A DNA stretch of 54,504 nt from an uncultured bacterium. Its GTDB lineage: Bacteria > Pseudomonadota > Gammaproteobacteria > Ga0077536. How positions within the stretch are numbered: position 1 is the stretch's first letter; every line of letters begins with the position of its first letter. The notes under the pieces were generated by a model. That model was not told the DNA's origin and did not search any database. It saw nothing but the letters and a program-made list of their open reading frames with translations. The translations under genes and the position numbers were made by a program. The DNA is taken from contig CAXGUU010000001.1 of NCBI GenBank assembly GCA_964012875.1, positions 1 to 54,504 of the forward strand, in the 5' to 3' direction. This document shows, piece after piece, positions 7,641-44,907 of the stretch.

Positions 7641-8510
7641 ATGAATATCGGATTTTTTGGAATCGGGCCCGGGCCTGCCGCGGACCCTGACGTCATCAAG
7701 GTTATCGCCACGACTTGCGAGGACTGCGGTTACTACTCACTGTGGGCGCCCGAGCACATTGTGTTGTTGGATAAATACTCATCGAAGTATCCCTATACCC
7801 AGGACGGTGTGATGCCCTTTCCAACGATGGAAATTGACCTGCTTGACCCGTTCCTGGCGTTGACTTTCGCCGCGGCAGTGACGAAGAGGATCCGACTTGG
7901 TACCGGCATCTGCCTCGTCCCTGAACGTCATCCGCTTACGACAGCCAAGGAAGTTGCGAGCCTCGACAAGCTCAGTGGCGGCCGGTTCGATTTCGGCGTT
8001 GGTATCGGTTGGTTGAAAGAGGAGTTCGACGCGCTTGGTATCTCTTGGCCGAGACGCGCGCAACGCACCCGGGATTACCTCGCAGCCATGCTGTCATTGT
8101 GGACCGAAAGCGTGAGCGCGCACAGTGGCGAGTTCTGCAGTTTCGAACCTGTTCGCTCATTCCCGAAGCCGGTTCAGGATCCGCATCCGCCAATCATATT
8201 CGGCGGCGAAAGCGAACCGGCATTGCGGCGTGTAGGGGAGATTGGCAACGGCTGGTGGGGGGTGAACGTCACGGTTGAGGCGGCGAAGGATCATTTGCAG
8301 ACCATTGCGAGGTTCGCCGAAGAGGCCGGTCGCGATCCCAAGGACCTGACCCACGCTGTGTCGCCCGGGATTGGTGTCCCGGTAACTAAGGCCGAGGTCG
8401 AACAATACGCCGAACTCGGAGTCGATCAGGTGATTGTCGGCGCGTTTGCGGAAAGCGCGGACGAATACCGTTCAATTATCGAGCAAACGGCTGAGGAGCT
8501 CATCGCGTAA
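7641..8510 (+). CDS. Luciferase-like (LLM) flavin/F420-dependent oxidoreductase
   Basis: Trimmed to ATG 7641, with AAGGAG 8 nt upstream. Contains SLWAPEH...LGTGICLVPERHP...GVGIGWLKEEF, typical of the LLM TIM barrel. Confidence 0.85.
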   Translation: MNIGFFGIGPGPAADPDVIKVIATTCEDCGYYSLWAPEHIVLLDKYSSKYPYTQDGVMPFPTMEIDLLDPFLALTFAAAVTKRIRLGTGICLVPERHPLTTAKEVASLDKLSGGRFDFGVGIGWLKEEFDALGISWPRRAQRTRDYLAAMLSLWTESVSAHSGEFCSFEPVRSFPKPVQDPHPPIIFGGESEPALRRVGEIGNGWWGVNVTVEAAKDHLQTIARFAEEAGRDPKDLTHAVSPGIGVPVTKAEVEQYAELGVDQVIVGAFAESADEYRSIIEQTAEELIA

Positions 8511-13240: not shown

Positions 13241-14059
13241 TCAGTTCAGCTGTCGGTTCAGATCACTGAGGCGCTCGACCATATCGTCAAATTCGGTTGC
13301 GGTAGAATAGCGCGAGGCCTGAATGTAATGCGCCGCACCGATTGTCTTGCACGCGCCCAGGGTTTCCACGGCTTCGTCCTGCGAATCCGGTAAGCCGCCA
13401 ATCAGTACCATGGCAGGGCACGGCTTACCTGCCGCGTCGGCCATTTCCGCGAGCTTGTCATAGCGTGGTTTTAGTTTGTCAGCGTCCAGCCCTATCGGTA
13501 ACCAACCATCACCGACCCGCACGGTCCGTTCAAGTGCAGCATCGGTCATACCGCCGACATAAATCGGAGGGCACGGTGGCCTGGGCCGGAATAGAAACGG
13601 TTGTCCATTCAGTTCAACAACATCGTCATCGGCATGGAAGCATTCGAGAATAAAGTCGATGGTCTCGTCCGTGATTTTGCCGCGCTGATTCTTAGGCACA
13701 TTCAGCACCTTGAATTCGGGTTCCATCCAGCCGGGGCCGATACCGAAATGCAAGCGGCCGCCCGAAAGCGCCTGAATGCTGGCAATCCACTTTGCCGTCG
13801 GCAAGGCGGTGCGGTAGGGCAACACCAGCACACTGACGCCAAGTTCAATGGTTCTGGTGGCAGCAGCGAAATACGACAGGACCGCCAACGGGTCCAGCCA
13901 GATTCCCTCGGAACCCTCGGCATCGTCTGGCGGAATGGCGATGTGGTCGACCGTCCAGATGTGCGCGAGACCGGCTGCTTCCGCGCTCTCGGCTGCATGG
14001 CGGATGAGTTCGGCTGTTGCTGCAGGTCCCATGTTCCTGATCGCCGTACCGATTTTCAT
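13241..14059 (-). CDS. LLM-class flavin/F420-dependent oxidoreductase
   Basis: 272 aa with HIWTVDH...LSGGRLHFGIGPGWMEPEF...GDGWLP. Confidence 0.85.
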   Translation of the reverse strand: MKIGTAIRNMGPAATAELIRHAAESAEAAGLAHIWTVDHIAIPPDDAEGSEGIWLDPLAVLSYFAAATRTIELGVSVLVLPYRTALPTAKWIASIQALSGGRLHFGIGPGWMEPEFKVLNVPKNQRGKITDETIDFILECFHADDDVVELNGQPFLFRPRPPCPPIYVGGMTDAALERTVRVGDGWLPIGLDADKLKPRYDKLAEMADAAGKPCPAMVLIGGLPDSQDEAVETLGACKTIGAAHYIQASRYSTATEFDDMVERLSDLNRQLN

Positions 14060-14557: not shown

Positions 14558-15565
14558 TCAGTCGAGCAGCTTCAGTAAACCGGCATAGCTCGCCTCCAAG
14601 GCACCCGGTTCCGGCGGCATGGCGTTCAATAACATGATTTCGTCCAGCGTCCCCTCATACTCGGCCAGGCGTCGCCGGCAGTCGGCAACCGTTCCTGCGA
14701 TTGTAAGCTGATCGATACATTCATCCGGGATCGCGTCGACCGCCGCTTCCAGCTTGCCGGCCGGCATGAGCTTGAGTAAATCGTCTGCTGATTTCGAGAA
14801 ACCCTGCTCCCGCATGGTGAACTCGTAATAAGGGTGGGGCAGGGGCGCATAGAGATGACATATTGCCTCTCGGGCTGCGCGTCGTGCCCGCTCCCGATCC
14901 TCGTCAACCGCAGTGATGGCGACGGCATTCCATTTAAGGCTGGTGAAATCCCGATCGACCTCTGCGGCAGCCGCGCGTGCCTGCGGTTTGATCATCTCGT
15001 CCACATAGGTTGCCGATAAGGTGGCGCCGCCGGCAATACCATCGGCAACCTGCGCTGCAACCCGCATCATGCGCGGAAATACGGCAGCCAGGTAAACCGG
15101 GTAGGGCCTATCGCCGGGGTCAACGGACGGCGTCCATTCCATGTTGTAGATCTTGCCGCTGTAACTGACTGTCTCGCCCAGCCGTGTGCGCCCGATGATT
15201 TTCATCAGCTCAACGTACTCGCGCATGCGCGTCAGCACGCGCTCGTGCGGAATGCCCTGCCATTGTTCGTTGATGATGCGGTTACCGCCACCAACGCCGA
15301 GTATGAGGCGCCCGCTTGAAAACTCGTTGAAATCAACTGCGGCCATGCCGGCCAGGTAGGGACTGCGGCCGTAAGCGTTCAGCACATAGGGCGCGAGCCG
15401 AACGCGTTGGGTGGCCGCGGCCATGGCAGTCAGGGTGACCCAGCCACTGCGCCAGGCTTCAGCCATTGCCAGCGTCGAAAAGCCGCGGGCGTCAGCATTG
15501 CATGCGACCGCGGTCATCTCCGATACGGTTACTCCACCGCCGACAAAAATAATGCCTGTATCCAT
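14558..15565 (-). CDS. LLM-class flavin-dependent oxidoreductase
   Basis: Track ORF trimmed to ATG 15565, with AGGAG 6 nt upstream. Contains MAEAWRSGW...SGRLILGVGGGN. Confidence 0.85.
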   Translation of the reverse strand: MDTGIIFVGGGVTVSEMTAVACNADARGFSTLAMAEAWRSGWVTLTAMAAATQRVRLAPYVLNAYGRSPYLAGMAAVDFNEFSSGRLILGVGGGNRIINEQWQGIPHERVLTRMREYVELMKIIGRTRLGETVSYSGKIYNMEWTPSVDPGDRPYPVYLAAVFPRMMRVAAQVADGIAGGATLSATYVDEMIKPQARAAAAEVDRDFTSLKWNAVAITAVDEDRERARRAAREAICHLYAPLPHPYYEFTMREQGFSKSADDLLKLMPAGKLEAAVDAIPDECIDQLTIAGTVADCRRRLAEYEGTLDEIMLLNAMPPEPGALEASYAGLLKLLD

Positions 15566-15721
15566 TGTTTCGCTCCTAACAGGGTGATGCAAAATGTAGC
15601 GAGGAAGGTCAGGGGCAAGAGGCGGGTGAGGCGAGGACCGGAGCATGCTGATCCAAAAGGGGCCAGGCGCCGAACCTGCAACGCTGCCCGTGGCCTCCGC
15701 AGTAGTTTTGCATCACCGTGT

Positions 15722-18897: not shown

Positions 18898-19842
18898 TCA
18901 GGCACGGCCATGTGGCGTGTTGAAGTCCAGATCAGGACCTTTGGGGATCAATCCGTTCTGATCGACTGTGCGGTAATAGCCATACTTGATTTTTTCGATG
19001 TCGACCGTGCCCGCAACACCGGGAAGCTGGTAAAGGTCGCGGCAGTAGGGCCACAGGTTCGGGTAGTCGACGATCCGCCGTTTGTTACATTTGTAAAGCG
19101 GGTAGTACACGCAGTCGAAACGTACCAGGCAGGCGAACAGCCGCCAGTCCGGTTCTGTTGGTCTTTCGCCGAGCAGGTAGCGTGACGTTTCTAGTTTTTG
19201 GTCGAGCTGATCGAGCGCTGCAAACAACTGGTCGAAACCGGCTTCGTAGTCGCGCTGGTTTTTCGCCAGCAGGCAGCGGTAGACACCGTCTGTAACGCGG
19301 TCGCCAACAAACGTGTTCAAGCTGTCAATTTCGGCGCGGAGTTGCTCGGGGAAAAAATTTAGTTCGGGGTGCCGGGCAAGGTGATCGAATTCACAGTTGA
19401 GCATGCGCGCAATTGCGCCGGAGTCGTTGTTCACGATCCGACCGGTCTGCTTGTCCCACAGGATGGGTATGCTGACCCGCCCTGTGAACGAATCATCGCT
19501 CGCCGAGTAAAACTGGTGCAGGTGGGTCGCGCCCAGATTGGGATCGCGATAATCACCGGTATCGCCGAACCACCAGCCATCCATGCTCATCGCGGGATCG
19601 AGTTCAACAGCAGCGATAACGTGGTCGAGTCCCTTTAATTCTCGCGTCACCACGCCACGGTGCGACCAGGGGCAGGTGCGGTTGAAGTAGAGGACGTAGC
19701 GGCCGCTTTCGGCGGCATACGTTGTGCTGCCATCGGCACTGATACGATCGCCGAAGCCGGCGGAAAAGCGAACCTGTTTACCGTCGCGCACGAAGCCGGA
19801 GATGTCCTCGCGCTGCCATTTCCCGTCCACCAACATACCCAT
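18898..19842 (-). CDS. Glutathionyl-hydroquinone reductase (Xi/omega-like GST, YqjG/ECM4 type)
   Basis: 314 aa, GRYVLYFNRTCPWSHRGVVTREL (CPWxHR active-site motif). Confidence 0.85.
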   Translation of the reverse strand: MGMLVDGKWQREDISGFVRDGKQVRFSAGFGDRISADGSTTYAAESGRYVLYFNRTCPWSHRGVVTRELKGLDHVIAAVELDPAMSMDGWWFGDTGDYRDPNLGATHLHQFYSASDDSFTGRVSIPILWDKQTGRIVNNDSGAIARMLNCEFDHLARHPELNFFPEQLRAEIDSLNTFVGDRVTDGVYRCLLAKNQRDYEAGFDQLFAALDQLDQKLETSRYLLGERPTEPDWRLFACLVRFDCVYYPLYKCNKRRIVDYPNLWPYCRDLYQLPGVAGTVDIEKIKYGYYRTVDQNGLIPKGPDLDFNTPHGRA

Positions 19843-22597: not shown

Positions 22598-23614
22598 TCA
22601 GTCCGGCGCTACGCCTTTCGGCACCTTGTAGACCGTCGCTGCGGTGTCATGAAACATCGCCACCTGTTCATCTTCTGAGTAGCTTTGGGCGAGTCGTTTG
22701 AAGGCATTCCAGAGCACGGCGTAACTGCAACTGACCTTGTCGACCGGAAAGTTGCTTTCGAACATGCAGCGTTCGGGCCCGAAGTTTTCAATAGCGAAGT
22801 GGTAGTAATGCCCATTCGTTTGCGCGAGGTCCTCGGAGCTGACGCCTACGGCGCGTTTATGTAGGTCAAAGCCGTTGATCGGCATGGCTAGTCCACCAAG
22901 TTTCGCGTAAACATTTCTGCACTTTGCCAGTTCTGCGACAGACTGTTTCCAGGCCGTGAATACTTCATCACGTTGGTCTTTAAACGGTCCAATGCCAAGT
23001 GGCCCGCCGAAGTGATCAAAGATGATTATCTGATCCGGAAAGGCCCGTGCTAGCGCGGTCAGATCGTCTATCTGCGGATGATAGAGCCAGGCGTCAAACG
23101 TGAGATTCCGCTTCTTCAATTCCCGCATACCTTCGTGAAACAAAGGCCGGCTTAGCAGGTCCTGAGTTGGCCTGGTGTGCGAATTGCGGATAGCGTCGCT
23201 GTCGGACCAGCCGCTGGCATGGCGAATCCCGACAAAACGTTTGCTTGCCGCGATATGGCCATCGAGCACTTCTCCGACCGCGCTTCCTAATGTCAGATCG
23301 GCGAAGCCAACGATTGACGCACACAGTTTTGCCTTGCCGTAGTTGCCGCTTGCACTCATGGCGGCCATGCCATTGACGAACTCCGTTTCGCCCACCGGCT
23401 TCATCGCTTCGGGGCCGTTTGCGCGATACATCGCCATGCACTCCATGAATACCGTACTGACCACGTTGTGTCCGCTTGATACGTCAGCCAGCAGTTCGTC
23501 AAGCAGGTACCTATGATGGGGGTAGTCCCATAAATGATGATGCGGATCGCAAATCGCCCGATCGGGATCGATGATAGGTTCCTCGGGCATCTGCGGTCGG
23601 GTGGTTTCGCTCAT
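22598..23614 (-). CDS. Amidohydrolase-2 (ACMSD-like TIM-barrel metal hydrolase/decarboxylase) family protein
   Basis: 338 aa, ICDPHHHLWD metal-binding start motif and ...FDHFGGP.... Confidence 0.8.
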   Translation of the reverse strand: MSETTRPQMPEEPIIDPDRAICDPHHHLWDYPHHRYLLDELLADVSSGHNVVSTVFMECMAMYRANGPEAMKPVGETEFVNGMAAMSASGNYGKAKLCASIVGFADLTLGSAVGEVLDGHIAASKRFVGIRHASGWSDSDAIRNSHTRPTQDLLSRPLFHEGMRELKKRNLTFDAWLYHPQIDDLTALARAFPDQIIIFDHFGGPLGIGPFKDQRDEVFTAWKQSVAELAKCRNVYAKLGGLAMPINGFDLHKRAVGVSSEDLAQTNGHYYHFAIENFGPERCMFESNFPVDKVSCSYAVLWNAFKRLAQSYSEDEQVAMFHDTAATVYKVPKGVAPD

Positions 23615-23768: not shown

Positions 23769-25358
23769 ATGCCGGAAGTTGATGAGTCGTTGCGCCTGTG
23801 GGGCTGGTTTTTTCTGGCCCTGTACATCCTGGCGATGATGGGGTTTGGTTACCTCGGGATGCGACGCGTGACCTCGAGTGACGACTTTGCCACCGCGCGT
23901 GGCGGTTACGGACCGGTGTTTCTGGCCTTTGCCCTGACCGCCACGGCGGCGAGTGGCGGCACCTTCGTCGGCATACCGGCAATCGGATACACCAGCGGCA
24001 TCTCGGTCTTCTGGTATTCGACCTTTTACCCGCTGGGACTGTATTTCGGGCTTGTGCTGTGTCTGCGCGGTATCCGCCGTGCGGGCGCCGCGTTTGGCAC
24101 GCGGTCGATGCCGGAATACTTAGGCGAGCGTTTCGATTCCGACGCGCTGCGCATTCTTGCGGCTCTCTTTTCGCTCCTGCTCTTGTTCTACCTCGCCGGA
24201 CAGTTGCTCGCCGGTGCCGTGATGTTTAACAAGATGATGGGTGTCGATCTCTTCCCGGCGCTGGTGACAACGGCGGTCATCATCATGGTTTACATCGTCA
24301 TCGGCGGCGCCCACGCGGATATTCTGACTGACGGTGTGCAGGGCGCACTGATGCTGGCACTCGCGATTGCCGTCGCCATCATGTTCTTTTCCGGGGTCGG
24401 TGTGGTCGGTGGTTTCGGCGGCATGATGGAAAACCTGCGTCAGCAGGATCCAGCCTTAACGTCGCTGTTTCATCCGACCACGCCGTTTCTCGATTCGAAG
24501 TGGGATGTATTCGCCTTGTTCCTGATGCATGCACCGCTTGGCCTTCTACCGCATGTTGGCAACAAGCTCTGGGCGCTGAAAAGCGATAGCGATCAAAACA
24601 AATTCATTGCGCTGTCGTTCGGCTTCGGCATGCTGCTCCCGCTCATCGCTACCGGTGGTATTCTCGCCCGTGCGCTGTTGGGTGATGCCCTTCTCATTGA
24701 AGGTGCGAGCCCGAATGACGCCATTCCCTCGTTGTTTATCGTCCTGTTACCGACCTGGCTCGCGGCACTGGTCGGTGCCGGTGTGCTTGCCGCGGTGATG
24801 TCCACTGCAGACGGATTGGTTGTCTCGACATCACAGATTTTTGCCAACGATATCTACCGGCTGTCGATTGTGCCGCGCCTCAAAAACAAGCCGAGCGAAG
24901 CGACGATTGATCGCGTGGCATTAATCACCAGTCGAGCGGGCTCGGTAATCGTCGTTTCCGGTTCTATCTGGCTCGCCTGGGTATCCCAGTCCATGAACGT
25001 GGCGTTGCTCATTGCGGCTGGTATCGGCGGCATGATCGCGGCGATTGCGGGGCCCATCTTTGCCGGTATTCTGTGGGAAGGCGCGACCAGAGTAGGCGCA
25101 CTCGCCGGGTTCGTGGTCGGCGGTTTTTCCTTTGTGCCTATTAAAGCGGGTTGGATCGATGCCGAATGGTTTATTGGCGGGCCGCTTGAGGCCGCTGGTT
25201 CCTGGCTCGCGGCGCAGGCGGCCAACCCGTTCGCCTGCGGCACGATATCGGCACTGTTGTCGTTGGCCACGGTGGTCCTGGTTTCGTGGTTTACCGAACG
25301 GCCGAGTGAGGCGCATTTAAACAAGGTCTTCGGTGAGGGCCGGGCGCCTGCTACATAG
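23769..25358 (+). CDS. Sodium:solute symporter (SSS) family transporter
   Basis: 529 aa with about 13 hydrophobic segments. GGAGG SD upstream. DFATARGGYG... is typical of the SSS N-terminus. Confidence 0.9.
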   Translation: MPEVDESLRLWGWFFLALYILAMMGFGYLGMRRVTSSDDFATARGGYGPVFLAFALTATAASGGTFVGIPAIGYTSGISVFWYSTFYPLGLYFGLVLCLRGIRRAGAAFGTRSMPEYLGERFDSDALRILAALFSLLLLFYLAGQLLAGAVMFNKMMGVDLFPALVTTAVIIMVYIVIGGAHADILTDGVQGALMLALAIAVAIMFFSGVGVVGGFGGMMENLRQQDPALTSLFHPTTPFLDSKWDVFALFLMHAPLGLLPHVGNKLWALKSDSDQNKFIALSFGFGMLLPLIATGGILARALLGDALLIEGASPNDAIPSLFIVLLPTWLAALVGAGVLAAVMSTADGLVVSTSQIFANDIYRLSIVPRLKNKPSEATIDRVALITSRAGSVIVVSGSIWLAWVSQSMNVALLIAAGIGGMIAAIAGPIFAGILWEGATRVGALAGFVVGGFSFVPIKAGWIDAEWFIGGPLEAAGSWLAAQAANPFACGTISALLSLATVVLVSWFTERPSEAHLNKVFGEGRAPAT

Positions 25359-25427
25359 CCCACAGACTGGCCACGGATTGTCTCGAAGCGCTACAGTAGG
25401 TGGTACTTGGATCGAGACGGTTCAGCC

Positions 25428-26069
25428 ATGACGCAAATCGAAGTATTCAGCCCGATCGCGCAAAGCCGTGTGTTATCGCGCGAACTCGCATCCCGCAGTG
25501 GCGATCTCGCATCCAAACGCGTCGCCTTGCTCGACAACCTCAAGGCCAATGCCGGCGCCCTGCTCGAAGGGGTCGCCGCCAAAATGCAGACGGCCAATCC
25601 CGGCGTCGAAGTGTGCCGCTTTGAGAAGGAAGCAACAGCGGCCGCATCGGATGTTGTGATGGCGCATTTGAAAACTTTCGATGCCGTTGTTCTTGCCATC
25701 GCGGACTGAGGCTCCTGTACGTCGTGGAGTGTCCATGACTCGATTGAACTGGAGCAACTGGGTGTGCCGACGGCACTCCTGTGCACCGACGAGTTCGGAC
25801 CGTTGGCCCGGGCAGAGTCGGAAGTGCTAGGCATGCCGGGTCTGCCCTTAATCGCAATACCGCATCCGCTCGCTGGTAATGAGCATGGTCTTGTCACGGC
25901 TAAGGCCGCGGCGATTGCAGGCGAAGTACGTGATGCGCTCAGCGCTCCGGTTGACGAGGTCACCACACGCTACCGGGGGAGATTCACGACCTTGACCGAG
26001 CGCCGTCTGAGCGACGGTGCGGTCTGCGTTGACGAAGTGTGCGCGCTAGACCCGGCGATGGCGCGCTGA
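25428..26069 (+). CDS. Candidate selenoprotein with U-G-S-C motif (in-frame TGA 25707-25709 read as Sec)
   Basis: Track ORFs 25407..25709 and 25764..26069 share a frame and the 54 nt between them are open. Read-through gives 213 aa, ...FDAVVLAIAD-U-GSCTSWSVHD.... The second ORF has only a GTG and no SD. Confidence 0.65.
25703..25734 (+). other. Candidate SECIS-like hairpin enclosing the UGA
   Basis: GGAC[UGAG]GCUCC-(10-nt loop UGUACGUCGU)-GGAGU GUCC. A 4-bp outer stem and a 5-bp inner stem (one G.U pair), with UGA in the bulge. Folded by hand only. Confidence 0.3.
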
Positions 26070-26083
26070 GCGTTGCCTGGACG

Positions 26084-27106
26084 ATGACGATGGCGCAAAC
26101 GATTCGTCTCGACGCCGACACGATTGACGATACTTTCGAAGCGGAAGGCTGGAGCGACGGCTTGCCGGTCGTGCCGCCGACGCCGGCGCGCGTGAACGCC
26201 ATGCTGGCTCAAAGTGGATGGGATGCAAGCCATGAATTCGGCACCATGCCGCCGCGTCACGGCGTCGTCACGCCACACATTCTTGCCGTCAACGCGGTCA
26301 TGGCCGGGTGCCGTCCCGAGTACTTTCCGGTTGTGGTTGCGGCAGTACGGGCGATACTTGACCCGCTGTTTAACCTGTTCGCGGTGCAGGCGACGACCCA
26401 TCCTTGCGGACCTTGCGTGATCGTCAACGGACCCATCGCTGGCGAACTCGGCATTAACGCCCGTTATGGTGCCTTCGGCCCCGGCACGCGGGCCAATGCG
26501 ACCATCGGCCGCGCTATTCGTTTGATCCTCATGAACGTCGGTGGCGCCAGGCCCGGGATACTCGACCGCTCGACCCAGGGGCAGCCAGCCAAGTACGCCT
26601 GTTGCGTCGCTGAGAACGAGGCCGAAAGCCCGTTTGAACCGCTGCACGTGAGTCGCGGTTTTGACGCCGACGAGTCAGTCGTCACCGTAACCGCCGCCGA
26701 AGGCCCGCACAATCTGAACGATCACGTCAGCGACAAGGCCGCCGGGATTCTTGCCACACTACGCGGCGCGATGAACGACATGGGGTCAAATAATGCCTAC
26801 CTGTATGGCAATCCGACCCTGGCGCTGGGCCCCGAGCATGCTGCCATTATCGCAGCTGGTGGCTACGATCGGCGCCGGCTGCAACAGTTCGTATTCGACG
26901 AAGTGCGTATCGAGCGCAAGCACTGGCTTGAAGGCGGTATGGCAAAAATGTTCAACGATGATTTCGCTGATGCCAGCGCCATTCCTATTATTCGGCGCCC
27001 CGAAGACTTACTGGTTATGGTCGTCGGTGGCTTCGGGCGGCACTCCTGCTGGCTGCCGACTTTCGGCGAGAGTACGCAAGCGGTATCGATGCGGGTGGAG
27101 CGTTAG
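26084..27106 (+). CDS. Conserved uncharacterised protein with DGLPVVPPT and HPCGPC (thioredoxin-like CxxC) motifs
   Basis: Track ORF 26039..27106 trimmed to ATG 26084, 14 nt after the upstream stop. Coding-like composition, 340 aa. I recognise no family. Confidence 0.75.
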   Translation: MTMAQTIRLDADTIDDTFEAEGWSDGLPVVPPTPARVNAMLAQSGWDASHEFGTMPPRHGVVTPHILAVNAVMAGCRPEYFPVVVAAVRAILDPLFNLFAVQATTHPCGPCVIVNGPIAGELGINARYGAFGPGTRANATIGRAIRLILMNVGGARPGILDRSTQGQPAKYACCVAENEAESPFEPLHVSRGFDADESVVTVTAAEGPHNLNDHVSDKAAGILATLRGAMNDMGSNNAYLYGNPTLALGPEHAAIIAAGGYDRRRLQQFVFDEVRIERKHWLEGGMAKMFNDDFADASAIPIIRRPEDLLVMVVGGFGRHSCWLPTFGESTQAVSMRVER

Positions 27107-32790: not shown

Positions 32791-33435
32791 ATGATCAAGA
32801 TCTACGGCACGACAATCAGTAACTATCACAACACCGCGAAACTGGCGCTGATCGAAAAGGGCGTCGAGTTTGACGAAATCGATCAGTTTCCGGGGCAGGA
32901 TGAAAAGATCCTGGCGGCGAGCCCCATGGGCAAGGTGCCCTGGATCGAAGTTGACGGCAAACCTTTGAGCGAAGTGAATGTGATCTTCGACTATCTCGAG
33001 GACACCTGCCCCAACCCGCCCATGTATCCTCAGGTTCCCTGGGAGCGCGCGAAAGCCAAGGAGATTATTCGCGTCGTCGAGCTCTACTGTGATGCCGCTG
33101 CACGGCGCCATATTTCGACGGTGTACTTCGGCGCAGACGTTGACCAGACGGCTTTCGATGAAGTGAGACCGGCGCTCGAAAACGGCCTGCGAGCATTCAA
33201 ACAGCTCGCCCGGTTCTCACCGTACGTTGCCGGCAGTGATTTTGGTTTCGCCGACATCGCGACCTTCTTTCAGTTGCAGTTCACCAACCTTCACACCCGC
33301 AAGATCTATGACTGGGACTTCATCGCGGAAGACAGCGCCTTGAGTGACTATTTCGCGATGTTGTCCGAGCGTCCGTCACTCAGGGAAGTCAATGGCGTAA
33401 TGCAGGCGACTATGACTAAAGTCTTGCCGCAGTAG
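32791..33435 (+). CDS. Glutathione S-transferase
   Basis: 214 aa with canonical GST_N (MIKIYG...SPMGKVPWIEVDG) and GST_C halves. Confidence 0.85.
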   Translation: MIKIYGTTISNYHNTAKLALIEKGVEFDEIDQFPGQDEKILAASPMGKVPWIEVDGKPLSEVNVIFDYLEDTCPNPPMYPQVPWERAKAKEIIRVVELYCDAAARRHISTVYFGADVDQTAFDEVRPALENGLRAFKQLARFSPYVAGSDFGFADIATFFQLQFTNLHTRKIYDWDFIAEDSALSDYFAMLSERPSLREVNGVMQATMTKVLPQ

Positions 33436-35164: not shown

Positions 35165-35169
35165 CTTGG

Positions 35170-35391
35170 TCAGGTGGTCAGTGCAACAACGGCCTGACCT
35201 TCGCCGACGAAATCGCCTTCTTTGACCAGTATTTCGCTGACCGTACCGGCGAGCGTACTTTGAATGGGTACTTCCATTTTCATTGATTCGAGTATGACCA
35301 CCGTCATGCCATCCTCGACCTGATCGCCGACCGCGACCTCAATTTTCCAGACGTTGCCCGGAATCTCGGATAGTACGTGCTGATTCGCCAT
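35170..35391 (-). CDS. Stand-alone biotin carboxyl carrier (biotinyl domain) protein, 73 aa
   Basis: Trimmed to ATG 35391. VVILESMKMEVPI carries the (A/S)MKM biotinylation motif. Confidence 0.85.
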   Translation of the reverse strand: MANQHVLSEIPGNVWKIEVAVGDQVEDGMTVVILESMKMEVPIQSTLAGTVSEILVKEGDFVGEGQAVVALTT

Positions 35392-35476
35392 GATATGTTC
35401 GTTGGCCCCTGTCGTTTTGCGAACGCCTGGATGAGTGGCGAATGCGCGGCAGCGCGAATTATAAGGAGACGGTAGC

Positions 35477-35866
35477 ATGCTCGACTACACCACGCTTAAA
35501 GATGCCGGTGGCCTGACGCCGTGGCCGCCGATGGAAGAACTGCCCTTTGTCAAAGTCCTCGATGGCAGCCCGGTACATTCCGGCCGCTTCGATGTCGGTG
35601 GTTTCGGCATGCGCACCATGACCGGCGTGTGGGAATGCACCCCCGGCAAATTCGAATACACCTATCCGGGTGACGAAATCTGCACTTTACTTGAAGGTGA
35701 AATCAGCCTGGTCGATGAAGACGGTAAGACCCATGAGTATCGCGCCGGGGATACGTTCTACATGCGCAAAAACGAAGTTGCCGTGTGGACGGTAAGCAAG
35801 ACGGTCAGGAAAATTTTCTATATCCATGACCCGGACAGCGAGGAACTGTCACACAAAGCAGCCTGA
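35477..35866 (+). CDS. Cupin (DUF861/EutQ-like) domain protein
   Basis: 129 aa. GVWECTPGKFEYTYPGDEICTLLEGE...GDTFYMRKN is typical of cupin_3. Confidence 0.75.
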   Translation: MLDYTTLKDAGGLTPWPPMEELPFVKVLDGSPVHSGRFDVGGFGMRTMTGVWECTPGKFEYTYPGDEICTLLEGEISLVDEDGKTHEYRAGDTFYMRKNEVAVWTVSKTVRKIFYIHDPDSEELSHKAA

Positions 35867-35871
35867 TTGCG

Positions 35872-38265
35872 ATGACTGCTTCCGGGCAGACGCGCCAGCA
35901 TGGCTACTGCGCGCTGTGCTGGTCGAGTTGCGGGTGCATATCGGTTGTTGAAGACGGCAAGCTGATTGCCGTCGAACCCGATCCTGGCCACCCGACCGGC
36001 GAAGCCTTATGCGGTAAGGGATTGGCTGCGCGGGACTATGTTTACAGCGAGGCGCGTCAGCTCTATCCGATGAAGCGCACGCGCCCGAAGGGTGATCCTG
36101 ATCCGGGCTGGCAACGCATCAGCTGGGATGAGGCGCTGGATACGGCAGCAGCCGAAATCAGACGCATTGTGGAAGCAAGCGGTAGCGAATCGGTCGCGTT
36201 CAGCCTAACAACCAGCGCCGGCACTGCCATGCAGGACAGCGCGCCGTTCGTCGAACGTCTACGCCATGCTGTCGGTAGCCCGAACGAGATCGCATCGATC
36301 GAACTCTGCGATTTCTCAAAAGACTTCGTTTATCCGCACACCTTCGGTACGCCGATGCCCATCAGCGAAGTTGAAAACGGCGACTGCATCATTCTCTGGG
36401 GACACAACCCCAGTTCTACCTGGCTCGCCTTCGCCCGGCGTGTGACCCAAGCGCTCAGGCGCGGGGTGAAACTGATCGTCATGGACCCGGTACGTGTCGG
36501 GTTCGCGGCCAAGGCTGATCAATGGTTGCGAGTACGCCCTGGCAGCGACGGTGCGCTGGCCTTGTCGCTAGCGCATGTGATGATCGAGGAAGAGCTGTTC
36601 GATCGAGACTTTGTTTCAACCTGGAGTAATGGCCCGTTTCTCATCCGCGATGACACAGATGCGATGCTGACTGCCGCCGATTTATACGAAGGCGGTGACG
36701 AATCCGCGCGAGTTGCCTGGCATACCGCTGCGAACGCTGCCGTTCTGTACGATGTTGCCGCCGGGGCCTATGTCGACAATGTTGAACCGCAGGCGTTGCA
36801 GCTTCGTGGCGCGGTGACCGTTGATACGCTGACGGGCGCAGTGACCTGTCGCCCTGCTTTTGACGCCTATGCAAACCTGTGCGCTGAGTATGCCCCGGAG
36901 CGTGCGGCGGAAATCGCTTGGATCGAGGCCCCACAGATTCGTGAAACCGCACGCTTGATCGGAAGCAGTCAGGCGGTGTCCTGCCACGCCTGGGCGGGTC
37001 TCGAAATGCATTCGAATACCAGTCAGACGGGCCGAGCGATCGCTTGCTTGTATGCTTTGACCGGCTGTTTCGATGCGCCCGGTGGCAATGTAATACTCAA
37101 CCCCGTTCCGGCGAACACCATCTGGGGGCAGGAATTGATGCCGGCCGGGATGACGGCAAAACCGGTCGGGCTGGAAGAGCGACCGCTTGGTCCTGAGTCG
37201 ATTTTTGGTTGGATAACAATCGACGGATTCTACAAAGCCGTGCTTGAGAGAAAACCCTACGGCATCAACGCATTAGTCAGCTTCGGTCTGAATATGTTGG
37301 TGTCACACGCTGATGGTGAACGTGGCAAACGGGCGCTGGAGGCGCTCGATTTCATGGTGCACGCCGACTTGTTCATGACGCCAACCGCTCAAAACGCGGA
37401 TATTTTTTTGCCGGTCAACACGCCGTGGGAACGCGAGGCCATGAAGACGGATTTTTATGCCGACCAGGCCGCCACCTCGCACGTGCAGTTGCGCCAGAAG
37501 GTAATTGAGCCCTTAGGCGAAAGTCAGTCTGATGCCTGGATTGCGATGGAACTTGGCAAGCGGCTGGGGTATGGCGATGCATTCTGGGATGGCGACTTAG
37601 ATGCTGCCAGACGGCAGGTGCTGGAACCCAGTGGTATAGATCTCGAGCAACTGCGCGCAGCGCCTGCAGGTATCAATCTGGGGTTGGAATCGCGCTACCG
37701 CAAATACACCGAAGAAATGGACGGACATCCTGTGGGATTCGGAACGCCCAGCAAACGCGTAGAGTTGTATTCCGAGACGCTTCACGCCAATGGCTACGAC
37801 CCGCTGCCACGCTACCTCGAGCCCGCAGTTGGCCCCTATTCGCGGCCGGATCTGGCGAAGGATTTTCCCCTGGTCCTGACCGATACGAAGACACCGCATT
37901 TCATTCATAGCCAGTACCGGCACGTTGCACGCCTGCGTCGCCATGAACGCGAGCCGCGCATCGAGATGCATCCTGAAACTGCCGAAGCACGGGGTATCAA
38001 TGAAGGGGATTGGGTCAACGTCCGGACACCGCATGCGGGCGCTCGCATGGTCGCGCGTTTTGCACCGGCGATGGATCGCAGGGTCGTGCGCGCGACAGCC
38101 GGTTGGTGGCAACCGTGTGATGGACTTTCGGTGCCGGGCTACGATGCCGAAAGTGACGAAGGTGCGAACTACAATCGCATGATAAGTAATGAACACGCCG
38201 ACCCGGTCGGCGGTTGCACCGCGAACAAGTCGTACCTGTGTGAAGTTACGCCCGCCGACAGCTAA
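35872..38265 (+). CDS. Molybdopterin (bis-MGD) oxidoreductase, DMSO-reductase superfamily, with N-terminal Fe-S Cys cluster
   Basis: 797 aa with CALCWSSCGC...C near the N-terminus, the right length and the C-terminal barrel pattern. Substrate unknown. Confidence 0.85.
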   Translation: MTASGQTRQHGYCALCWSSCGCISVVEDGKLIAVEPDPGHPTGEALCGKGLAARDYVYSEARQLYPMKRTRPKGDPDPGWQRISWDEALDTAAAEIRRIVEASGSESVAFSLTTSAGTAMQDSAPFVERLRHAVGSPNEIASIELCDFSKDFVYPHTFGTPMPISEVENGDCIILWGHNPSSTWLAFARRVTQALRRGVKLIVMDPVRVGFAAKADQWLRVRPGSDGALALSLAHVMIEEELFDRDFVSTWSNGPFLIRDDTDAMLTAADLYEGGDESARVAWHTAANAAVLYDVAAGAYVDNVEPQALQLRGAVTVDTLTGAVTCRPAFDAYANLCAEYAPERAAEIAWIEAPQIRETARLIGSSQAVSCHAWAGLEMHSNTSQTGRAIACLYALTGCFDAPGGNVILNPVPANTIWGQELMPAGMTAKPVGLEERPLGPESIFGWITIDGFYKAVLERKPYGINALVSFGLNMLVSHADGERGKRALEALDFMVHADLFMTPTAQNADIFLPVNTPWEREAMKTDFYADQAATSHVQLRQKVIEPLGESQSDAWIAMELGKRLGYGDAFWDGDLDAARRQVLEPSGIDLEQLRAAPAGINLGLESRYRKYTEEMDGHPVGFGTPSKRVELYSETLHANGYDPLPRYLEPAVGPYSRPDLAKDFPLVLTDTKTPHFIHSQYRHVARLRRHEREPRIEMHPETAEARGINEGDWVNVRTPHAGARMVARFAPAMDRRVVRATAGWWQPCDGLSVPGYDAESDEGANYNRMISNEHADPVGGCTANKSYLCEVTPADS

Positions 38266-41908: not shown

Positions 41909-42844
41909 TCAACCCGACAACTTGTCGTCCGGCAACGGGATGTCGTAGTACGGTCGTCCGACCGCGTCGGCGTCGGCGATGCGCAGCCGCTGCAATTGGG
42001 CATCGCGTTCGCGCAAACCGCCGTAAATATCGCCGGCGCTGTCGCCGGCCGTGCCGTTCAGAAATTCATTGGGATCCTGATGGTCAACGAAGCCCAGGGC
42101 CGCCGTTCCCAATGCGTAGCCCATCAATTCCTGAACTTTTTTCGGGAGTTTGCGGGCTTCTTCTAGGGGTACGGCGAGGTATTGGTTTTCTTCCTGCCGC
42201 AGCCAACCGAGCGAGTAGTGTAGGGCTAGGCCGTAGCGCGCGCTGTCGGCGCGATTCTCGCCGCCGCCATGAAACGTGCTGCCGACATACAGCAGTACTG
42301 AACCTGCCGGCATTTCAGCGACGACAATTTCTTCGGCCGTGGGCGCGCGTTCGTCGGTCCAGTGCCGCGAGCCGGGAACCAGGCGTGTCGCCCCGTTCTC
42401 AGCAGTGAAATCCGTTAGAGCCCACATGCTGGCGAGTAACATCGGCGGCGCCGGATTCTGAATCGGATAAAAACCCGCATCACGATGCAGGGCCTGGGCG
42501 GTTTCGCCCGGCTCGATATACATGACGCCGGTGTAGTTGACCTGGTAGCGCGCGCAGTAGGGCAGCAACAGCAAATCAGCGACTGACAGTACCAAGGGTT
42601 CGGTCAGCAGCGCCTGCACTGCAGTTGAGCGCATCAGCAAACGGCCGAAGCGCCGGGTCAGCACGCCCATCATGCTTTCGAACCCGGGCTCGCGCGCATC
42701 AATGTGCGGTTGCAGCTCGCGGGTGACCCTGGCGATCAGGTCTGGTGCTGCCAGGTTTTCGATGATGACGTAGCCGTCACGTTCCAGGGCCAGGACGATG
42801 TCCGCCGCGGTATCGCTGGGTTTAAACCGATTAAGAGATATCAC
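41909..42844 (-). CDS. Phytanoyl-CoA dioxygenase (PhyH) family Fe(II)/2OG oxygenase
   Basis: 311 aa. QALHRDAGF (HxD) ...TFHGGGEN. GTG start overlaps the hyuA stop (GTGA). Confidence 0.8.
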   Translation of the reverse strand: MISLNRFKPSDTAADIVLALERDGYVIIENLAAPDLIARVTRELQPHIDAREPGFESMMGVLTRRFGRLLMRSTAVQALLTEPLVLSVADLLLLPYCARYQVNYTGVMYIEPGETAQALHRDAGFYPIQNPAPPMLLASMWALTDFTAENGATRLVPGSRHWTDERAPTAEEIVVAEMPAGSVLLYVGSTFHGGGENRADSARYGLALHYSLGWLRQEENQYLAVPLEEARKLPKKVQELMGYALGTAALGFVDHQDPNEFLNGTAGDSAGDIYGGLRERDAQLQRLRIADADAVGRPYYDIPLPDDKLSG

Positions 42845-44907
42845 AACGCGATATTAATCAGCGAGCTGCCGTCAGCCTGAACAACAAGCACGTCTTCGGG
42901 GTTTACAACCACAGTCGTCGTCGGGAATTCAACGATGGCCGGACCCACAATGCGATCACCCACCGCAAGTTCCGTGCCCTGGTAGATATCCGTCATGCAC
43001 TCATCATCGACCGCCGCCATGTAGGCGGGCCGGCGCCCCGAGGGTTTCACGTCGCCTTTTGAGTCGCGTGCGATACGGCCCTTCGGCGCAGCACGGCTGC
43101 CGGTCGCTGAGAGGCGCCAGTGCAGACATTCAATGGGTTGGTCGCGCATCGAGTAGGTGAAGCGCTTTTCGTGCTCTGCGTGAAAATCGTCTTCAAGTTT
43201 GCGCAGAAAAGCATCATCGATAGGCCCGTCCGGCAGCGGCACAGTCAGATTATGGACCTGCCCCGGGTAACGCCCCTCAACGTGACGCAGAAACCGAATT
43301 TCGTCGGCTTTGAAACCGTCCCCTTCGAGCTGGGCCTGGCCTTCCTGGATTAAATCTTCGAACACTGCCTCGATCTGTTTGCCGACGCCGTCGGCATTCG
43401 AGTGGCAATGAGACAGGCGCACATAATCGTGGCGCACCGGGGTGACCGCCATGCCAAAGGCGCAAAGCCCGCCCGCTGAACTGGGTACCAGCACTTCACT
43501 GATGCGCAGCATGCGTGCGAGTTCCGCCGCATGGAGCCCGCCGGCGCCGCCTCCGGCAACCATGACGTAATCGCGTGGATCGATACCGCGTTCAATCGAA
43601 ACCGCGCGAATCGCTGTTGCCATATTCGAATTGACGATGGTGATGATGCCGGCTGCTGCCGCTTTGACGCTGAGGTCCAGGGGCTTGGCGACATGGTTTT
43701 CAATCGCGGTTACTGCCAGTTCGGTGTCCAGCGATCGGCGGCCGCCGAGAAACGCGCCTGCCGCCATGCGTCCGCTGACGAGATTGGCGTCGGTCACCGC
43801 TGGTTGTTCGCCGCCGCGCCCGTAGCAGGCGGGCCCGGGTTGTGAGCCCGCGCTTTGCGGGCCGACGCGCAATGAGTTGCCGCTGTCGATCCAGGCGATA
43901 GAGCCGCCGCCCGCGCCAACCGACAGTACTTCGACGCCATTGACGCCAATCGGCTGGTTGGCAACCTGAATGTCGCTGGACATTACCGCTTCGCCGTCGC
44001 GCAGCAGGCACACATCGAAGCTGGTACCACCCATGTCGACCACGATCAGTTTGTCCGGGGCCTTGGTCGTGGCGGCGTAATGTGCGCCCGCGGCAGGGCC
44101 TGCTGCGGGGCCTGAAGCGACCGCGTTCACTGGCCGGGCCAGTAATTCAGGTACACCGGCGCAACCGCCATTGACCTGCATGATGAGCGGACGGTGTGGC
44201 AGGCCGCCAGCCTGCATTGCAGACTCGAAGGCACGCAGGTAGTTGCTGATAATCGGCGCAATATAAGCACTCAGAATGGTTGAGGAGGTGCGTTCCCATT
44301 CGCGAATTTCCGGCAGGATGTCTGCCGAACAGACGACGTCGACATCCGGCAGTTCTTCGCGCAGGATTTCGGCAGTCCGGTGTTCGTGGCTGGCATCGAC
44401 GATTGACCACAGGTAGGCAACGGCGATGGCCTTGACGCCGTGCTGTTTCAATTCAGCCGCGGCCGTCCGGACCGCATCTTCGTCCAGCGGTTTCACTTCA
44501 GAACCATCAACGGCCGTGCGTTGCGGAATGCCTAGGCGCAGGTAGCGCGGAACAAAATCTTTGGGCTTTTGCAGATGCACGTTGAAGCGCTCCGGCTTGG
44601 CGCCTTTGCCGAGGTGGATGACGTCGCGAAAGCCTTCGGTACAGAGTAATCCAATCACCGGGCCGTTGCGCTGAATCAGCGCATTGGTCGCCATGGTCTG
44701 ACCGTGAACCAGAAATTCCGTCGTTTCCAGCAGTTGTTCTACCGGCGTTTCGATCTCAGATGCAATGCCGGCGAGACCCCGGGTAATGGCGCGCAGCGGC
44801 TCATCCGGTGTCGAATCTTCCTTGTAAACCAGGAACTGCCCGTTGTCCTGCAGTAAAACAACGTCGGTAAAGGTGCCGCCGATATCAATCCCGATTCGGT
44901 TACCCAT
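42841..44907 (-). CDS. Hydantoinase/oxoprolinase A-type subunit (HyuA family)
   Basis: Trimmed to ATG 44907 (MGNRIGIDIGGTFTDVV). 8-nt overlap with the hyuB stop. Confidence 0.9.
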   Translation of the reverse strand: MGNRIGIDIGGTFTDVVLLQDNGQFLVYKEDSTPDEPLRAITRGLAGIASEIETPVEQLLETTEFLVHGQTMATNALIQRNGPVIGLLCTEGFRDVIHLGKGAKPERFNVHLQKPKDFVPRYLRLGIPQRTAVDGSEVKPLDEDAVRTAAAELKQHGVKAIAVAYLWSIVDASHEHRTAEILREELPDVDVVCSADILPEIREWERTSSTILSAYIAPIISNYLRAFESAMQAGGLPHRPLIMQVNGGCAGVPELLARPVNAVASGPAAGPAAGAHYAATTKAPDKLIVVDMGGTSFDVCLLRDGEAVMSSDIQVANQPIGVNGVEVLSVGAGGGSIAWIDSGNSLRVGPQSAGSQPGPACYGRGGEQPAVTDANLVSGRMAAGAFLGGRRSLDTELAVTAIENHVAKPLDLSVKAAAAGIITIVNSNMATAIRAVSIERGIDPRDYVMVAGGGAGGLHAAELARMLRISEVLVPSSAGGLCAFGMAVTPVRHDYVRLSHCHSNADGVGKQIEAVFEDLIQEGQAQLEGDGFKADEIRFLRHVEGRYPGQVHNLTVPLPDGPIDDAFLRKLEDDFHAEHEKRFTYSMRDQPIECLHWRLSATGSRAAPKGRIARDSKGDVKPSGRRPAYMAAVDDECMTDIYQGTELAVGDRIVGPAIVEFPTTTVVVNPEDVLVVQADGSSLINIAL

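What the first reader, a model, noticed from the sequence alone, without database searches (positions are those of the whole stretch)
25428..26069. In-frame UGA inside one continuous reading frame: candidate U-G-S-C selenoprotein
The ORF track splits this locus into 25407..25709 and 25764..26069. Both pieces are in the same frame, and the only interruption is TGA 25707-25709. I translated the 54 nt between them and found them open (GSCTSWSVHDSIELEQLG). The downstream piece has only an internal GTG and no Shine-Dalgarno. Read-through gives a 213-aa protein with ...FDAVVLAIAD-U-GSCTSWSVHD..., a Sec-x-x-Cys redox motif analogous to CxxC. I recall an NCBI family named 'UGSC family (seleno)protein', but this is memory and is not verified here. 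The C-terminal half (GVPTALLCTDEF...LPLIAIPHPLAG) also loosely reminds me of GrdB/PrdB-type reductase selenoprotein B; that is a weak recollection. A standard gene caller would report two fragments or nothing.
Basis: partly seen in the sequence, partly recalled or inferred. Interest (0 to 1): 0.8.

Follow-up and report, generated by a model that had tools for sequence, protein, structure and literature searches.

The report
Misannotated UGSC selenoprotein gene with partner
This is a genuine selenocysteine-encoding gene of the known but functionally uncharacterised "UGSC" family, split into two "hypothetical proteins" in public annotation because its in-frame UGA was read as a stop, and it always sits beside (or is fused to) a second uncharacterised protein.

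Summary
The frame from ATG 25428 to TGA 26069 is interrupted only by TGA 25707-25709, inside D-U-G-S-C. Read through, the 213-aa product passes the curated cut-offs of NCBIfam NF041046 "UGSC family (seleno)protein" (134.9 vs 125 bits) and Pfam PF24696. Each half alone fails NF041046. Twelve other unique relatives carry TGA in the same column, and 70 have Cys (DCGSCTSW). An 8-bp hairpin with a G-U-G loop starts 11 nt after the UGA and meets all four published bacterial SECIS criteria. Its synonymous sites are frozen in Sec forms only: the Ser codon is AGT in 12/12 Sec forms and AGC in 26/26 Cys forms. The family has been known since about 2007, so this is a new member of a known kind. Beyond the finding: the 340-aa gene downstream (26084-27106, no known family) is adjacent in every assessable locus and fused to UGSC in about ten proteins. 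The predicted UGSC fold is flavodoxin-like, not thioredoxin-like. Function remains inferred. No Sec machinery lies on this contig.

The parts
25428..26069 (+). UGSC-family selenoprotein gene: 213 codons plus stop, with one in-frame UGA
   Evidence: It is a single frame, and NF041046 (134.9 bits) and PF24696 (150.8 bits) both span the UGA. The start ATG 25428 (MTQIEVF) matches the starts of L001 and L002 (MNTIEIL, MSELEIL).
25707..25709 (+). UGA codon read as selenocysteine (U94)
   Evidence: It is TGA in all 13 unique Sec-form sequences and TGY (Cys) in 70 Cys forms at the same column. UGA is otherwise the normal stop of 19 of 37 genes on the contig.
25716..25718 (+). Cys97 codon, the second residue of the U-x-x-C pair
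   Evidence: It is invariant in alignment A2. The G-S-C-T-S-W motif that contains it was the pattern used to locate all 83 unique sequences, so that set is not an independent test.
25721..25739 (+). SECIS-like hairpin GUCGUGGA-GUG-UCCAUGAC. It starts 11 nt after the UGA, and 19 nt separate the UGA from the loop.
   Evidence: Alone it folds at -9.3 kcal/mol with z = -3.76, and 0 of 200 shuffles fold as well. Twelve of 13 Sec forms make 8 of 8 pairs. Third-position entropy is zero at five of the six degenerate codons in +4..+10, against 0.6-1.9 bits in flanking codons with an invariant amino acid. The loop is GUG (GUA in L092) in Sec forms and GCG in Cys forms that encode the same peptide. It meets the bSECIS criteria quoted in PMC13188914.
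26084..27106 (+). Obligate partner gene: 340 aa from ATG 26084, or 338 aa from ATG 26090 as in the NCBI record (ACPHUF_05665)
   Evidence: It is adjacent on the same strand in 76 of 82 UGSC-seeded loci, and the other 6 are cut by contig ends. It is 69-75% identical in L001 and L002. It is fused to UGSC in P0164, P0178, P0133 and others. It has no Pfam, NCBIfam or PDB match.
26309..26311 (+). Invariant Cys76 of the partner (motif AVMAGC)
   Evidence: It is invariant in A4. The motif is present in 184 of 190 retrieved partner-type proteins. In the fusion model it lies in a short loop between two helices.

Best explanation
Window 25428-26069 is one gene for a 213-residue selenoprotein of the UGSC family, from a marine gammaproteobacterial MAG.

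How the UGA is decoded: UGA 25707-25709 is read as selenocysteine because an 8-bp hairpin with a G-U-G apical loop starts 11 nt downstream. In the standard bacterial mechanism such a hairpin binds SelB carrying Sec-tRNA(Sec) and holds it at the ribosome. That step is inferred from the hairpin's geometry and conservation, not shown.

What the protein looks like: it is predicted to be a flavodoxin-like alpha/beta domain. Sec94-Gly-Ser-Cys97 sits at the N-terminus of a helix, an arrangement suited to a nucleophilic selenolate that a neighbouring thiol can resolve into a selenenyl-sulfide.

How it most likely works: it probably does not act alone. It is the Sec-bearing subunit of a two-component enzyme. 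The other subunit is the 340-aa protein encoded 15 nt downstream (26084-27106), which has an invariant Cys76.

Shown: membership of the family; the Sec/Cys column; nucleotide-level constraint on the hairpin; strict gene adjacency and natural fusions; the predicted fold class; and remote similarity to the Sec region of GrdB/PrdB.

Inferred: actual Sec insertion; physical contact with the partner; and a reductase chemistry in which the partner holds a substrate, Sec attacks it and Cys97 resolves the intermediate, by analogy with PrdB/PrdA and GrdB/GrdE. Substrate and reductant are unknown.
For: Family membership: (10 of 10 aligned members hit NF041046).

Sec/Cys pairing.

Gene-caller truncation at the UGA. 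About 62-64 of the best 150 representative clusters are short C-terminal fragments that lack the motif.

SECIS: judged against the criteria quoted. All five zero-entropy codons among the 24 degenerate codons with a conserved amino acid (invariant, or one exception in 13) fall within the six degenerate hairpin codons. By my arithmetic on the table that is 6/42504, about 1.4e-4. The Ser codon is AGT in 12/12 Sec forms and AGC in 26/26 Cys forms.

UGA is not reassigned: it is the stop of 19 of 37 genes.

Partner linkage. The fusion model has pLDDT 86 and pTM 0.87.

Fold: (core pLDDT above 90), with only flavodoxin-like matches.

GrdB-like Sec region.

Literature: the UGSC-containing protein is a major marine selenoprotein family of unknown function, and a UGSC/Unknown_1 fusion is noted (PMC2398784, PMC1976440, PMC13188914).
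Against: No tRNA-Sec, selA, selB or selD lies on the contig, so the organism's ability to decode Sec is unverified.

The hairpin shows no compensatory covariation. Six pairs never vary and one varies only between G.U and G-C.

Part of the stem is dictated by the conserved peptide. Six of the 17 Cys forms that encode TSWSVHD also make 8 of 8 pairs.

The Sec forms are a fairly close clade, and eleven of the thirteen unique sequences were reached through partner homologues, so they are not independent samples.

No Rfam family matches.

The reductase mechanism rests on E-values of 1e-4 to 4e-6 to GrdB models and on analogy. The partner shows no similarity to PrdA or GrdE. The Sec-to-Cys76 distance in the fusion model could not be read.
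Confidence: 0.9

Rival explanations
1. The TGA is a true stop, and the locus holds two small independent genes (93 aa and 101 aa), as deposited in public annotation.
For: Gene callers report exactly these two products. A GGAG lies 9 nt upstream of GTG 25764. No Sec machinery is seen on the contig.
Against: The 18 codons between the TGA and the GTG are the most conserved part of the family (GSCTSW is invariant). Single-chain homologues with Cys at the column span both halves. Each half alone is below the NF041046 cut-off, while the read-through passes it. The start of the called second fragment varies between relatives, giving fragments of 82-121 aa. That is what miscalling would produce.
Confidence: 0.03
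2. It is a pseudogene or assembly error: a Cys codon (TGY) mutated or was misread to TGA in a Cys-type UGSC gene.
For: A single base separates TGC/TGT from TGA. The source is a metagenome-assembled contig.
Against: The same TGA occurs in 13 unique sequences from independent assemblies, including Acidimicrobiales MAGs and closed genomes of over 5 Mb. The fragment with identical sequence occurs on 6-10 contigs. Downstream codons remain under protein-level constraint and additional nucleotide-level constraint.
Confidence: 0.02
3. The UGA is recoded but not to selenocysteine. For example, Cys or Trp is inserted by near-cognate read-through, or by Cys-charged tRNA(Sec) when selenium is scarce.
For: Cys forms are functional in many lineages, so Cys at this site is tolerated. 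Marine surface selenium is low (general knowledge).
Against: A dedicated hairpin that meets the SECIS criteria, with the G-U loop signature specific to TGA forms, points to SelB-dependent decoding. The literature treats the family as a selenoprotein.
Confidence: 0.05
4. UGSC is a free-standing thioredoxin-like thiol/selenol oxidoreductase, as proposed in 2008, and its adjacency to the 340-aa gene is incidental to its mechanism.
For: The UxxC motif resembles CxxC. [quoted passage not shown]
Against: The AlphaFold model is a parallel beta-alpha repeat (five beta-alpha units), and Foldseek returns flavodoxin-like proteins, with no thioredoxin among the 50 hits listed. Adjacency holds in every assessable UGSC-seeded locus across phyla, in both gene orders, and there are full-length fusions.
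Confidence: 0.1

Closest known systems
UGSC family (seleno)protein (NCBIfam NF041046; Pfam PF24696). This is the 'UGSC-containing protein' of Zhang & Gladyshev, first noted in Hyphomonas neptunium and in marine metagenomes.
   Same: The HMM score is above the curated cut-off. The D-U/C-G-S-C-T-S-W motif is in the same column. The Sec form predominates in aquatic metagenomes. A SECIS-like hairpin follows the UGA. The family is also fused to a second domain in some members.
   Different: Nothing essential differs: it is a member. Added here: the partner is present in every assessable locus. The predicted fold is flavodoxin-like rather than the 'Trx-like' fold suggested in 2008. A specific AGT/GUG loop signature separates Sec forms from Cys forms.
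Selenoprotein B of glycine/sarcosine/betaine/D-proline reductases (GrdB, GrdF, GrdH, PrdB; TIGR01917, TIGR01918, NF040794, NF040795; Pfam PF07355)
   Same: Both have a U-x-x-C motif. Weak but repeated profile similarity is centred on the Sec-bearing region (model positions about 335-398 of 431). Both work, or are proposed here to work, with a second substrate-binding subunit.
   Different: Scores are 14-21 bits against cut-offs of 65-800. The roughly 330-residue N-terminal part of GrdB is absent. No grdA, grdE, prdA or thioredoxin-system genes are adjacent. The hosts are aerobic marine and soil bacteria and haloarchaea, not amino-acid-fermenting anaerobes. The partner shows no similarity to PrdA or GrdE.
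Bacterial SECIS elements (E. coli fdhF type; the bSECISearch consensus model)
   Same: A stem-loop lies inside the coding region just after the UGA. The stem is 8 bp, the apical loop is small and begins G-U, 19 nt separate the UGA from the loop, and the hairpin energy is -9.3 kcal/mol.
   Different: There is no sequence similarity to the fdhF element and no Rfam match. The loop is a triloop (GUG), or a pentaloop if the closing A-U opens. No bulged U is evident. SelB binding is untested.

Membership tests
UGSC family (seleno)protein (NF041046 / PF24696) | The whole-protein HMM score reaches the curated cut-off. | tested here: met
   NF041046 scores 134.9 bits against 125 (an equivalog model). 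PF24696 scores 150.8 bits against 25, over residues 6-172 of the 172-position model. This holds only for the read-through protein. The halves score 34.6 and 38.3 bits.
UGSC family (seleno)protein (NF041046 / PF24696) | A U/C-G-S-C motif at the conserved column. | tested here: met
   The window has D93-U94-G95-S96-C97-T98-S99-W100. The column is invariant as C in the ten A2 rows (the three TGA codons were entered as C). It is TGA in 13 and TGY in 70 unique loci.
UGSC family (seleno)protein (NF041046 / PF24696) | In Sec forms, a SECIS element lies directly after the UGA. | tested here: met
   The hairpin at 25721-25739 meets all four bSECIS consensus criteria of PMC13188914 Fig. 2A. The constraint on synonymous sites is specific to Sec forms. 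There is no covariation.
UGSC family (seleno)protein (NF041046 / PF24696) | The host has the Sec-insertion machinery (selA, selB, selC, selD). | not testable with these tools
   None is on the 54.5-kb contig.
UGSC family (seleno)protein (NF041046 / PF24696) | Selenium is actually incorporated at U94. | not testable with these tools
   This needs 75Se labelling or mass spectrometry.
GrdB/PrdB-type reductase selenoprotein B (TIGR01917 / TIGR01918) | The HMM score reaches the curated cut-off over the full length of about 430 aa. | tested here: not met
   It scores 21.1 bits against 602.2 and 17.1 bits against 65.45. The match is limited to residues 73-151, aligned to model positions 325-398. Six of 10 relatives hit weakly. 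It is not a member. The similarity is a remote domain-level one.
GrdB/PrdB-type reductase selenoprotein B (TIGR01917 / TIGR01918) | An operon context with grdA/grdE/grdC/grdD or prdA and a thioredoxin system. | tested here: not met
   The neighbours are an SSF symporter, the unknown partner, an FAD/BBE oxidase and amidohydrolases. No such genes appear in the related loci.
Thioredoxin-fold oxidoreductases (the assignment suggested in PMC2398784) | A thioredoxin fold with CxxC/UxxC at the N-terminus of helix 1. | tested here: not met
   The model of the Cys homologue P0001 (core pLDDT above 90) has five parallel beta-alpha units. The Foldseek hits listed are flavodoxin/WrbA/SIS-like at TM 0.3-0.46, with no thioredoxin among them. 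This rests on prediction only.

The most novel reading that the evidence does not exclude
UGSC and its always-adjacent 340-aa partner form a previously unrecognised two-component selenium-dependent enzyme, widespread in aerobic marine and soil bacteria and in haloarchaea. The partner family has at least 8,000 proteins, no Pfam or NCBIfam model and no PDB relative. In this reading the partner, a new fold with an invariant Cys, binds the substrate. The GrdB/PrdB-like Sec-x-x-Cys module carries out a reductive or group-transfer step. That would give a function to one of the most abundant marine selenoprotein families, which has been 'unknown' since about 2007.
Probability: 0.3. Interest if true: 0.65.

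Novelty: new member of a known kind. Interest (0 to 1): 0.33.

Why it matters
For the finding itself, the value is in annotation. A real selenoprotein gene is deposited as two hypothetical fragments, here and in many relatives, and the AGT/G-U-G loop signature gives a simple way to recognise Sec forms of this family.

There is a broader point. UGSC is among the most abundant selenoprotein families in ocean metagenomes (255 Sec against 21 Cys sequences in GOS; PMC2398784) and it still has no function. Three results here turn an orphan into a testable two-protein system: it is strictly linked to, and sometimes fused with, one large uncharacterised protein family; its Sec region resembles that of GrdB/PrdB; and its predicted fold is flavodoxin-like rather than thioredoxin-like. 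Cultured organisms that carry a Cys-type fusion, such as Paraburkholderia caffeinilytica and Roseixanthobacter liquoris, make experiments feasible.

Tried and rejected
1. Rfam at gathering thresholds on the whole window, and at E <= 10 on 25680-25800, gave no SECIS or other family.

2. Covariation analysis of the hairpin gave no compensatory changes and was uninformative because the hairpin is invariant. I relied instead on synonymous-site entropy and the Sec-versus-Cys contrast.

3. The metagenome scan was seeded on DCGSCTSW and so returned only Cys forms. I used it as a control set and reached Sec forms through partner homologues instead.

4. I tried to place the partner with Pfam and NCBIfam at E <= 1 on 13 diverse members, with single-sequence and profile searches of PDB sequences, and with Foldseek on the fusion model. 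Nothing emerged. No listed Foldseek hit aligns more than a single alpha/beta domain (mostly 150-225 columns, TMq <= 0.20).

5. Sequence search of the UGSC profile against PDB returned only chance-level hits.

6. Conserved third genes: the SSF symporter, FAD oxidase and amidohydrolase neighbours are not conserved beyond the closest relatives (L083, and the amidohydrolase in L001).

7. The search for other selenoprotein genes on the contig gave eight further mechanical candidates. All translate to junk with no redox motif.

8. sel genes and tRNA-Sec are absent from the contig.

I used the exact post-UGA translation for the search, and the Cys homologue P0001 and the fusion P0164 for the structures.

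10. Figure S1A of PMC2398784 (Unknown_1) is held only as an image, so its identity with the partner could not be confirmed.

11. Coordinates of the predicted models cannot be read, so the Sec-to-Cys76 distance could not be measured.

Full report
**1. The observation**

ORFs 25407..25709 and 25764..26069 share a frame, and the only stop between ATG 25428 and the terminal TGA 26067-26069 is TGA 25707-25709. The 54 nt between the two ORFs translate to GSCTSWSVHDSIELEQLG. Reading through gives 213 residues, with D93-U94-G95-S96-C97.

One detail needs correcting. GGAG at 25751-25754 lies 9 nt before GTG 25764, so "no Shine-Dalgarno" is not strictly true. Those bases are the conserved Leu-Glu codons.

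**2. Family membership**

With U written as C, the protein scores 134.9 bits on NCBIfam NF041046 "UGSC family (seleno)protein" against a curated cut-off of 125. The two halves alone score 34.6 and 38.3 bits. Pfam PF24696 (UGSC) matches residues 6-172 at 150.8 bits, straight across the UGA.

The literature describes the "UGSC-containing protein" as a selenoprotein of unknown function. It was seen first in Hyphomonas neptunium and in ocean metagenomes (PMC1976440). It is one of the most abundant selenoprotein families in the Global Ocean Sampling data, with 255 Sec forms against 21 Cys forms (PMC2398784). The 2026 review still lists it as uncharacterised (PMC13188914).

**3. The Sec/Cys column**

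Full-length homologues at 34-51% identity span the junction and carry DCGSCTSW. The two closest genomic relatives, both Gammaproteobacteria MAGs at 59-62% identity, have TGA at exactly this column.

I reached further relatives through the neighbouring gene. In total there are 13 unique Sec-form sequences with TGA at the column, including Acidimicrobiales MAGs and closed genomes of over 5 Mb. There are 70 unique Cys forms.

Gene callers split the Sec forms into an N-terminal fragment of 91-93 aa and a C-terminal fragment of roughly 82-121 aa; where Pfam hits are on record they are PF24696. The two fragments of this very contig are deposited as separate hypothetical proteins, including in Tara Oceans data. 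An exhaustive search with the post-UGA 119 residues found 498 representative clusters. Of the best 150, about 62-64 are short C-terminal fragments that lack the motif, which are miscalled Sec forms. About 60 have C-G-x-C, and about 16 are long or fused.

UGA is the ordinary stop of 19 of 37 genes on the contig, so there is no general reassignment.

**4. The recoding signal**

A hairpin, GUCGUGGA-GUG-UCCAUGAC (25721-25739), begins 11 nt after the UGA. On its own it folds at -9.3 kcal/mol with z = -3.76, and none of 200 shuffles folds as well.

It meets all four constraints of the published bacterial SECIS consensus (PMC13188914 Fig. 2A):
- apical loop of 3-9 nt (here 3);
- stem of 4-16 bp (here 8);
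- G in the first two loop positions, usually followed by G or U (here G-U);
- 16-37 nt between the UGA and the loop (here 19), with MFE at or below -7.5 kcal/mol.

Across the 13 Sec forms the stem makes 8 of 8 pairs in 12 sequences and 7 of 8 in one. The only stem substitution is CAU to CAC, which turns a G.U pair into G-C. There is no compensatory covariation, so covariation says nothing either way.

Two other results carry the argument. First, five of the six degenerate codons in +4..+10 (ACG TCG TGG AGT GTC CAY GAC) have zero third-position entropy. Flanking codons that encode invariant amino acids show 0.6-1.9 bits. All five zero-entropy codons among the 24 degenerate codons with a conserved amino acid fall inside the six degenerate hairpin codons. 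By my arithmetic that is 6/42504, about 1.4e-4.

Second, Cys forms encode almost the same peptide and so act as a natural control. They average 5.4 of 8 pairs against 7.9 in Sec forms (Mann-Whitney p = 1e-7). Where they encode the identical TSWSVHD, the loop Ser codon is always AGC, giving a GCG loop. Sec forms always use AGT, giving GUG. The counts are 26 of 26 against 12 of 12.

There is a caveat. Part of the stem follows from the peptide, since 6 of the 17 Cys forms with TSWSVHD also make 8 of 8 pairs. The Sec forms are also a related clade. No Rfam family matches.

**5. The Sec machinery**

The contig holds no tRNA genes and no selA, selB or selD among its roughly 40 genes. This proposed refutation test therefore could not be run. 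No other credible in-frame-TGA gene is present on the contig.

**6. The surroundings: an obligate partner**

The window is a whole 54,504-bp contig of a Gammaproteobacteria MAG. The UGSC stop is followed 15 nt later by a 340-aa ORF (26084-27106). That ORF has no Pfam, NCBIfam or PDB match, even with profiles at permissive thresholds.

The gene is 69-75% identical and in the same position in L001 and L002. Among the 82 loci found by searching with UGSC alone, it is on the same strand next to UGSC in 76, either downstream or upstream. In one of these, L059, a single gene intervenes. The other six are cut by contig ends. The remaining neighbours, such as the SSF symporter and the FAD/BBE oxidase, are not conserved beyond the closest relatives.

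The partner family has at least 8,000 members, and all the named ones are called hypothetical. Its invariant residues include DGLPxxPPT and Cys76 in AVMAGC. That motif is present in 184 of 190 retrieved proteins.

Natural UGSC-partner fusions of 543-562 aa exist. Two come from cultured bacteria, Paraburkholderia caffeinilytica and Roseixanthobacter liquoris, and NCBI names both "UGSC family (seleno)protein". A Sec-type fusion also occurs in L090. This is probably the "UGSC/Unknown_1 fusion" mentioned in PMC2398784. The figure is held only as an image, so I could not confirm that.

**7. Structure**

An AlphaFold model of the Cys homologue P0001 (51% identical) is confident in the core, with pLDDT above 90 for residues 20-180. 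It shows five parallel beta-alpha units, with C/U-G-S-C at the N-terminus of the helix that follows strand 3.

Foldseek against the PDB lists only flavodoxin/WrbA/SIS-like matches at TM 0.3-0.46, and no thioredoxin among them. The "Trx-like fold" suggested in 2008 is therefore not supported by prediction.

The fusion P0164 models with pLDDT 86 and pTM 0.87. The partner's invariant Cys sits in a short loop between two helices. No listed PDB hit aligns more than a single alpha/beta domain (mostly 150-225 columns, TMq <= 0.20), so the roughly 350-residue partner domain has no recognisable relative. Model coordinates could not be read, so I could not measure the Sec-to-Cys76 distance.

**8. Relation to GrdB/PrdB**

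The window protein hits TIGR01917 (GrdB) at E = 1.2e-4 and TIGR01918 at 2e-3. The match covers residues 73-151, aligned to model positions 325-398, which is the Sec region. Six of ten family members hit TIGR01917 (best E = 4e-6), and several also hit GrdF and GrdH.

The scores are far below the cut-offs, the large N-terminal part of GrdB is missing, and no grd or prd genes are nearby. The protein is therefore not a member of that family. It does share a remotely similar Sec-bearing module. The papers that mention both UGSC and GrdB do so only within lists of selenoprotein families.

**9. Mechanism**

Shown:
- one gene;
- membership of the UGSC family;
- a Sec/Cys column;
- a hairpin under nucleotide-level constraint that fits the SECIS model;
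- strict linkage and fusion with one partner family;
- a flavodoxin-like predicted fold.

Inferred:
- SelB-dependent insertion of Sec at U94;
- a selenolate at a helix N-terminus that Cys97 resolves into a selenenyl-sulfide;
- action on, or together with, the partner, whose invariant Cys76 is the obvious candidate for a relay or catalytic residue. The analogy is PrdB/PrdA and GrdB/GrdE, where a substrate-holding subunit works with a Sec-x-x-Cys subunit.

Substrate and electron donor are unknown.

**10. Verdict**

It is a new, misannotated member of a selenoprotein family that has been known for nearly two decades, so its novelty as a finding is modest.

The more interesting residue is the obligate partner of unknown fold and the GrdB-like, flavodoxin-like nature of the Sec module. 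Together they make the long-standing question of what UGSC proteins do experimentally approachable.

Noticed in passing
window 26084-27106 (+); also L001:4654-5715, L002:4681-5736 and 74 other loci: A 340-aa protein family with at least 8,000 members has no Pfam, NCBIfam or PDB relative. It is always next to UGSC and is sometimes fused to it. Its invariant features are Cys76 (AVMAGC) and DGLPxxPPT.
   Followed up: yes
P0164, P0178, P0133, P0135, P0136, P0139, P0140, P0150, P0191; L090:397-2184: There are natural single-chain UGSC-partner fusions of 543-562 aa. They include Cys forms in the cultured bacteria Paraburkholderia caffeinilytica and Roseixanthobacter liquoris, and a Sec-type fusion in L090 with TGA at 676-678.
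   Followed up: partly
L031, L046, L066, L075, L081, L082 (Cys-form loci): Six Cys forms keep the full 8-bp stem but have a GCG loop. Either the peptide TSWSVHD dictates most of the stem, or these are relics of recent Sec-to-Cys conversion.
   Followed up: partly
L089:2106, L096:2112 (Acidimicrobiales MAGs): Sec-form UGSC genes in Actinomycetota carry almost the same hairpin as the gammaproteobacterial ones, differing only by CAU to CAC. This suggests lateral transfer or very strong constraint.
   Followed up: no
P0217, P0254 (representative-library hits): Two family members have Ser at the Sec/Cys column (S-G-S-C). That would remove the nucleophile.
   Followed up: no
window 7632-8510, 13241-14059, 14558-15646, 46940-47935, 50989-51912, 52794-53627: The contig carries six luciferase-like monooxygenase paralogues. 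It also has three GST genes (5015-6037, 18898-19842, 32791-33435) and a hydantoinase A/B pair (42841-46837).
   Followed up: no
window 25751-25754: GGAG lies 9 nt upstream of the internal GTG 25764. It may help gene callers accept the spurious second ORF. The bases are the conserved Leu-Glu codons.
   Followed up: partly
window 35165-35871 and 35872-38265: An intact 797-aa molybdopterin oxidoreductase with no in-frame TGA is preceded by about 700 nt with no annotated gene.
   Followed up: no
window 23769-25358 and 22598-23614; L083:1-1757: The SSF-family symporter and the Amidohydro_2 gene upstream of UGSC are syntenic only in the closest relative, L083. They are not part of the conserved module.
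   Followed up: partly
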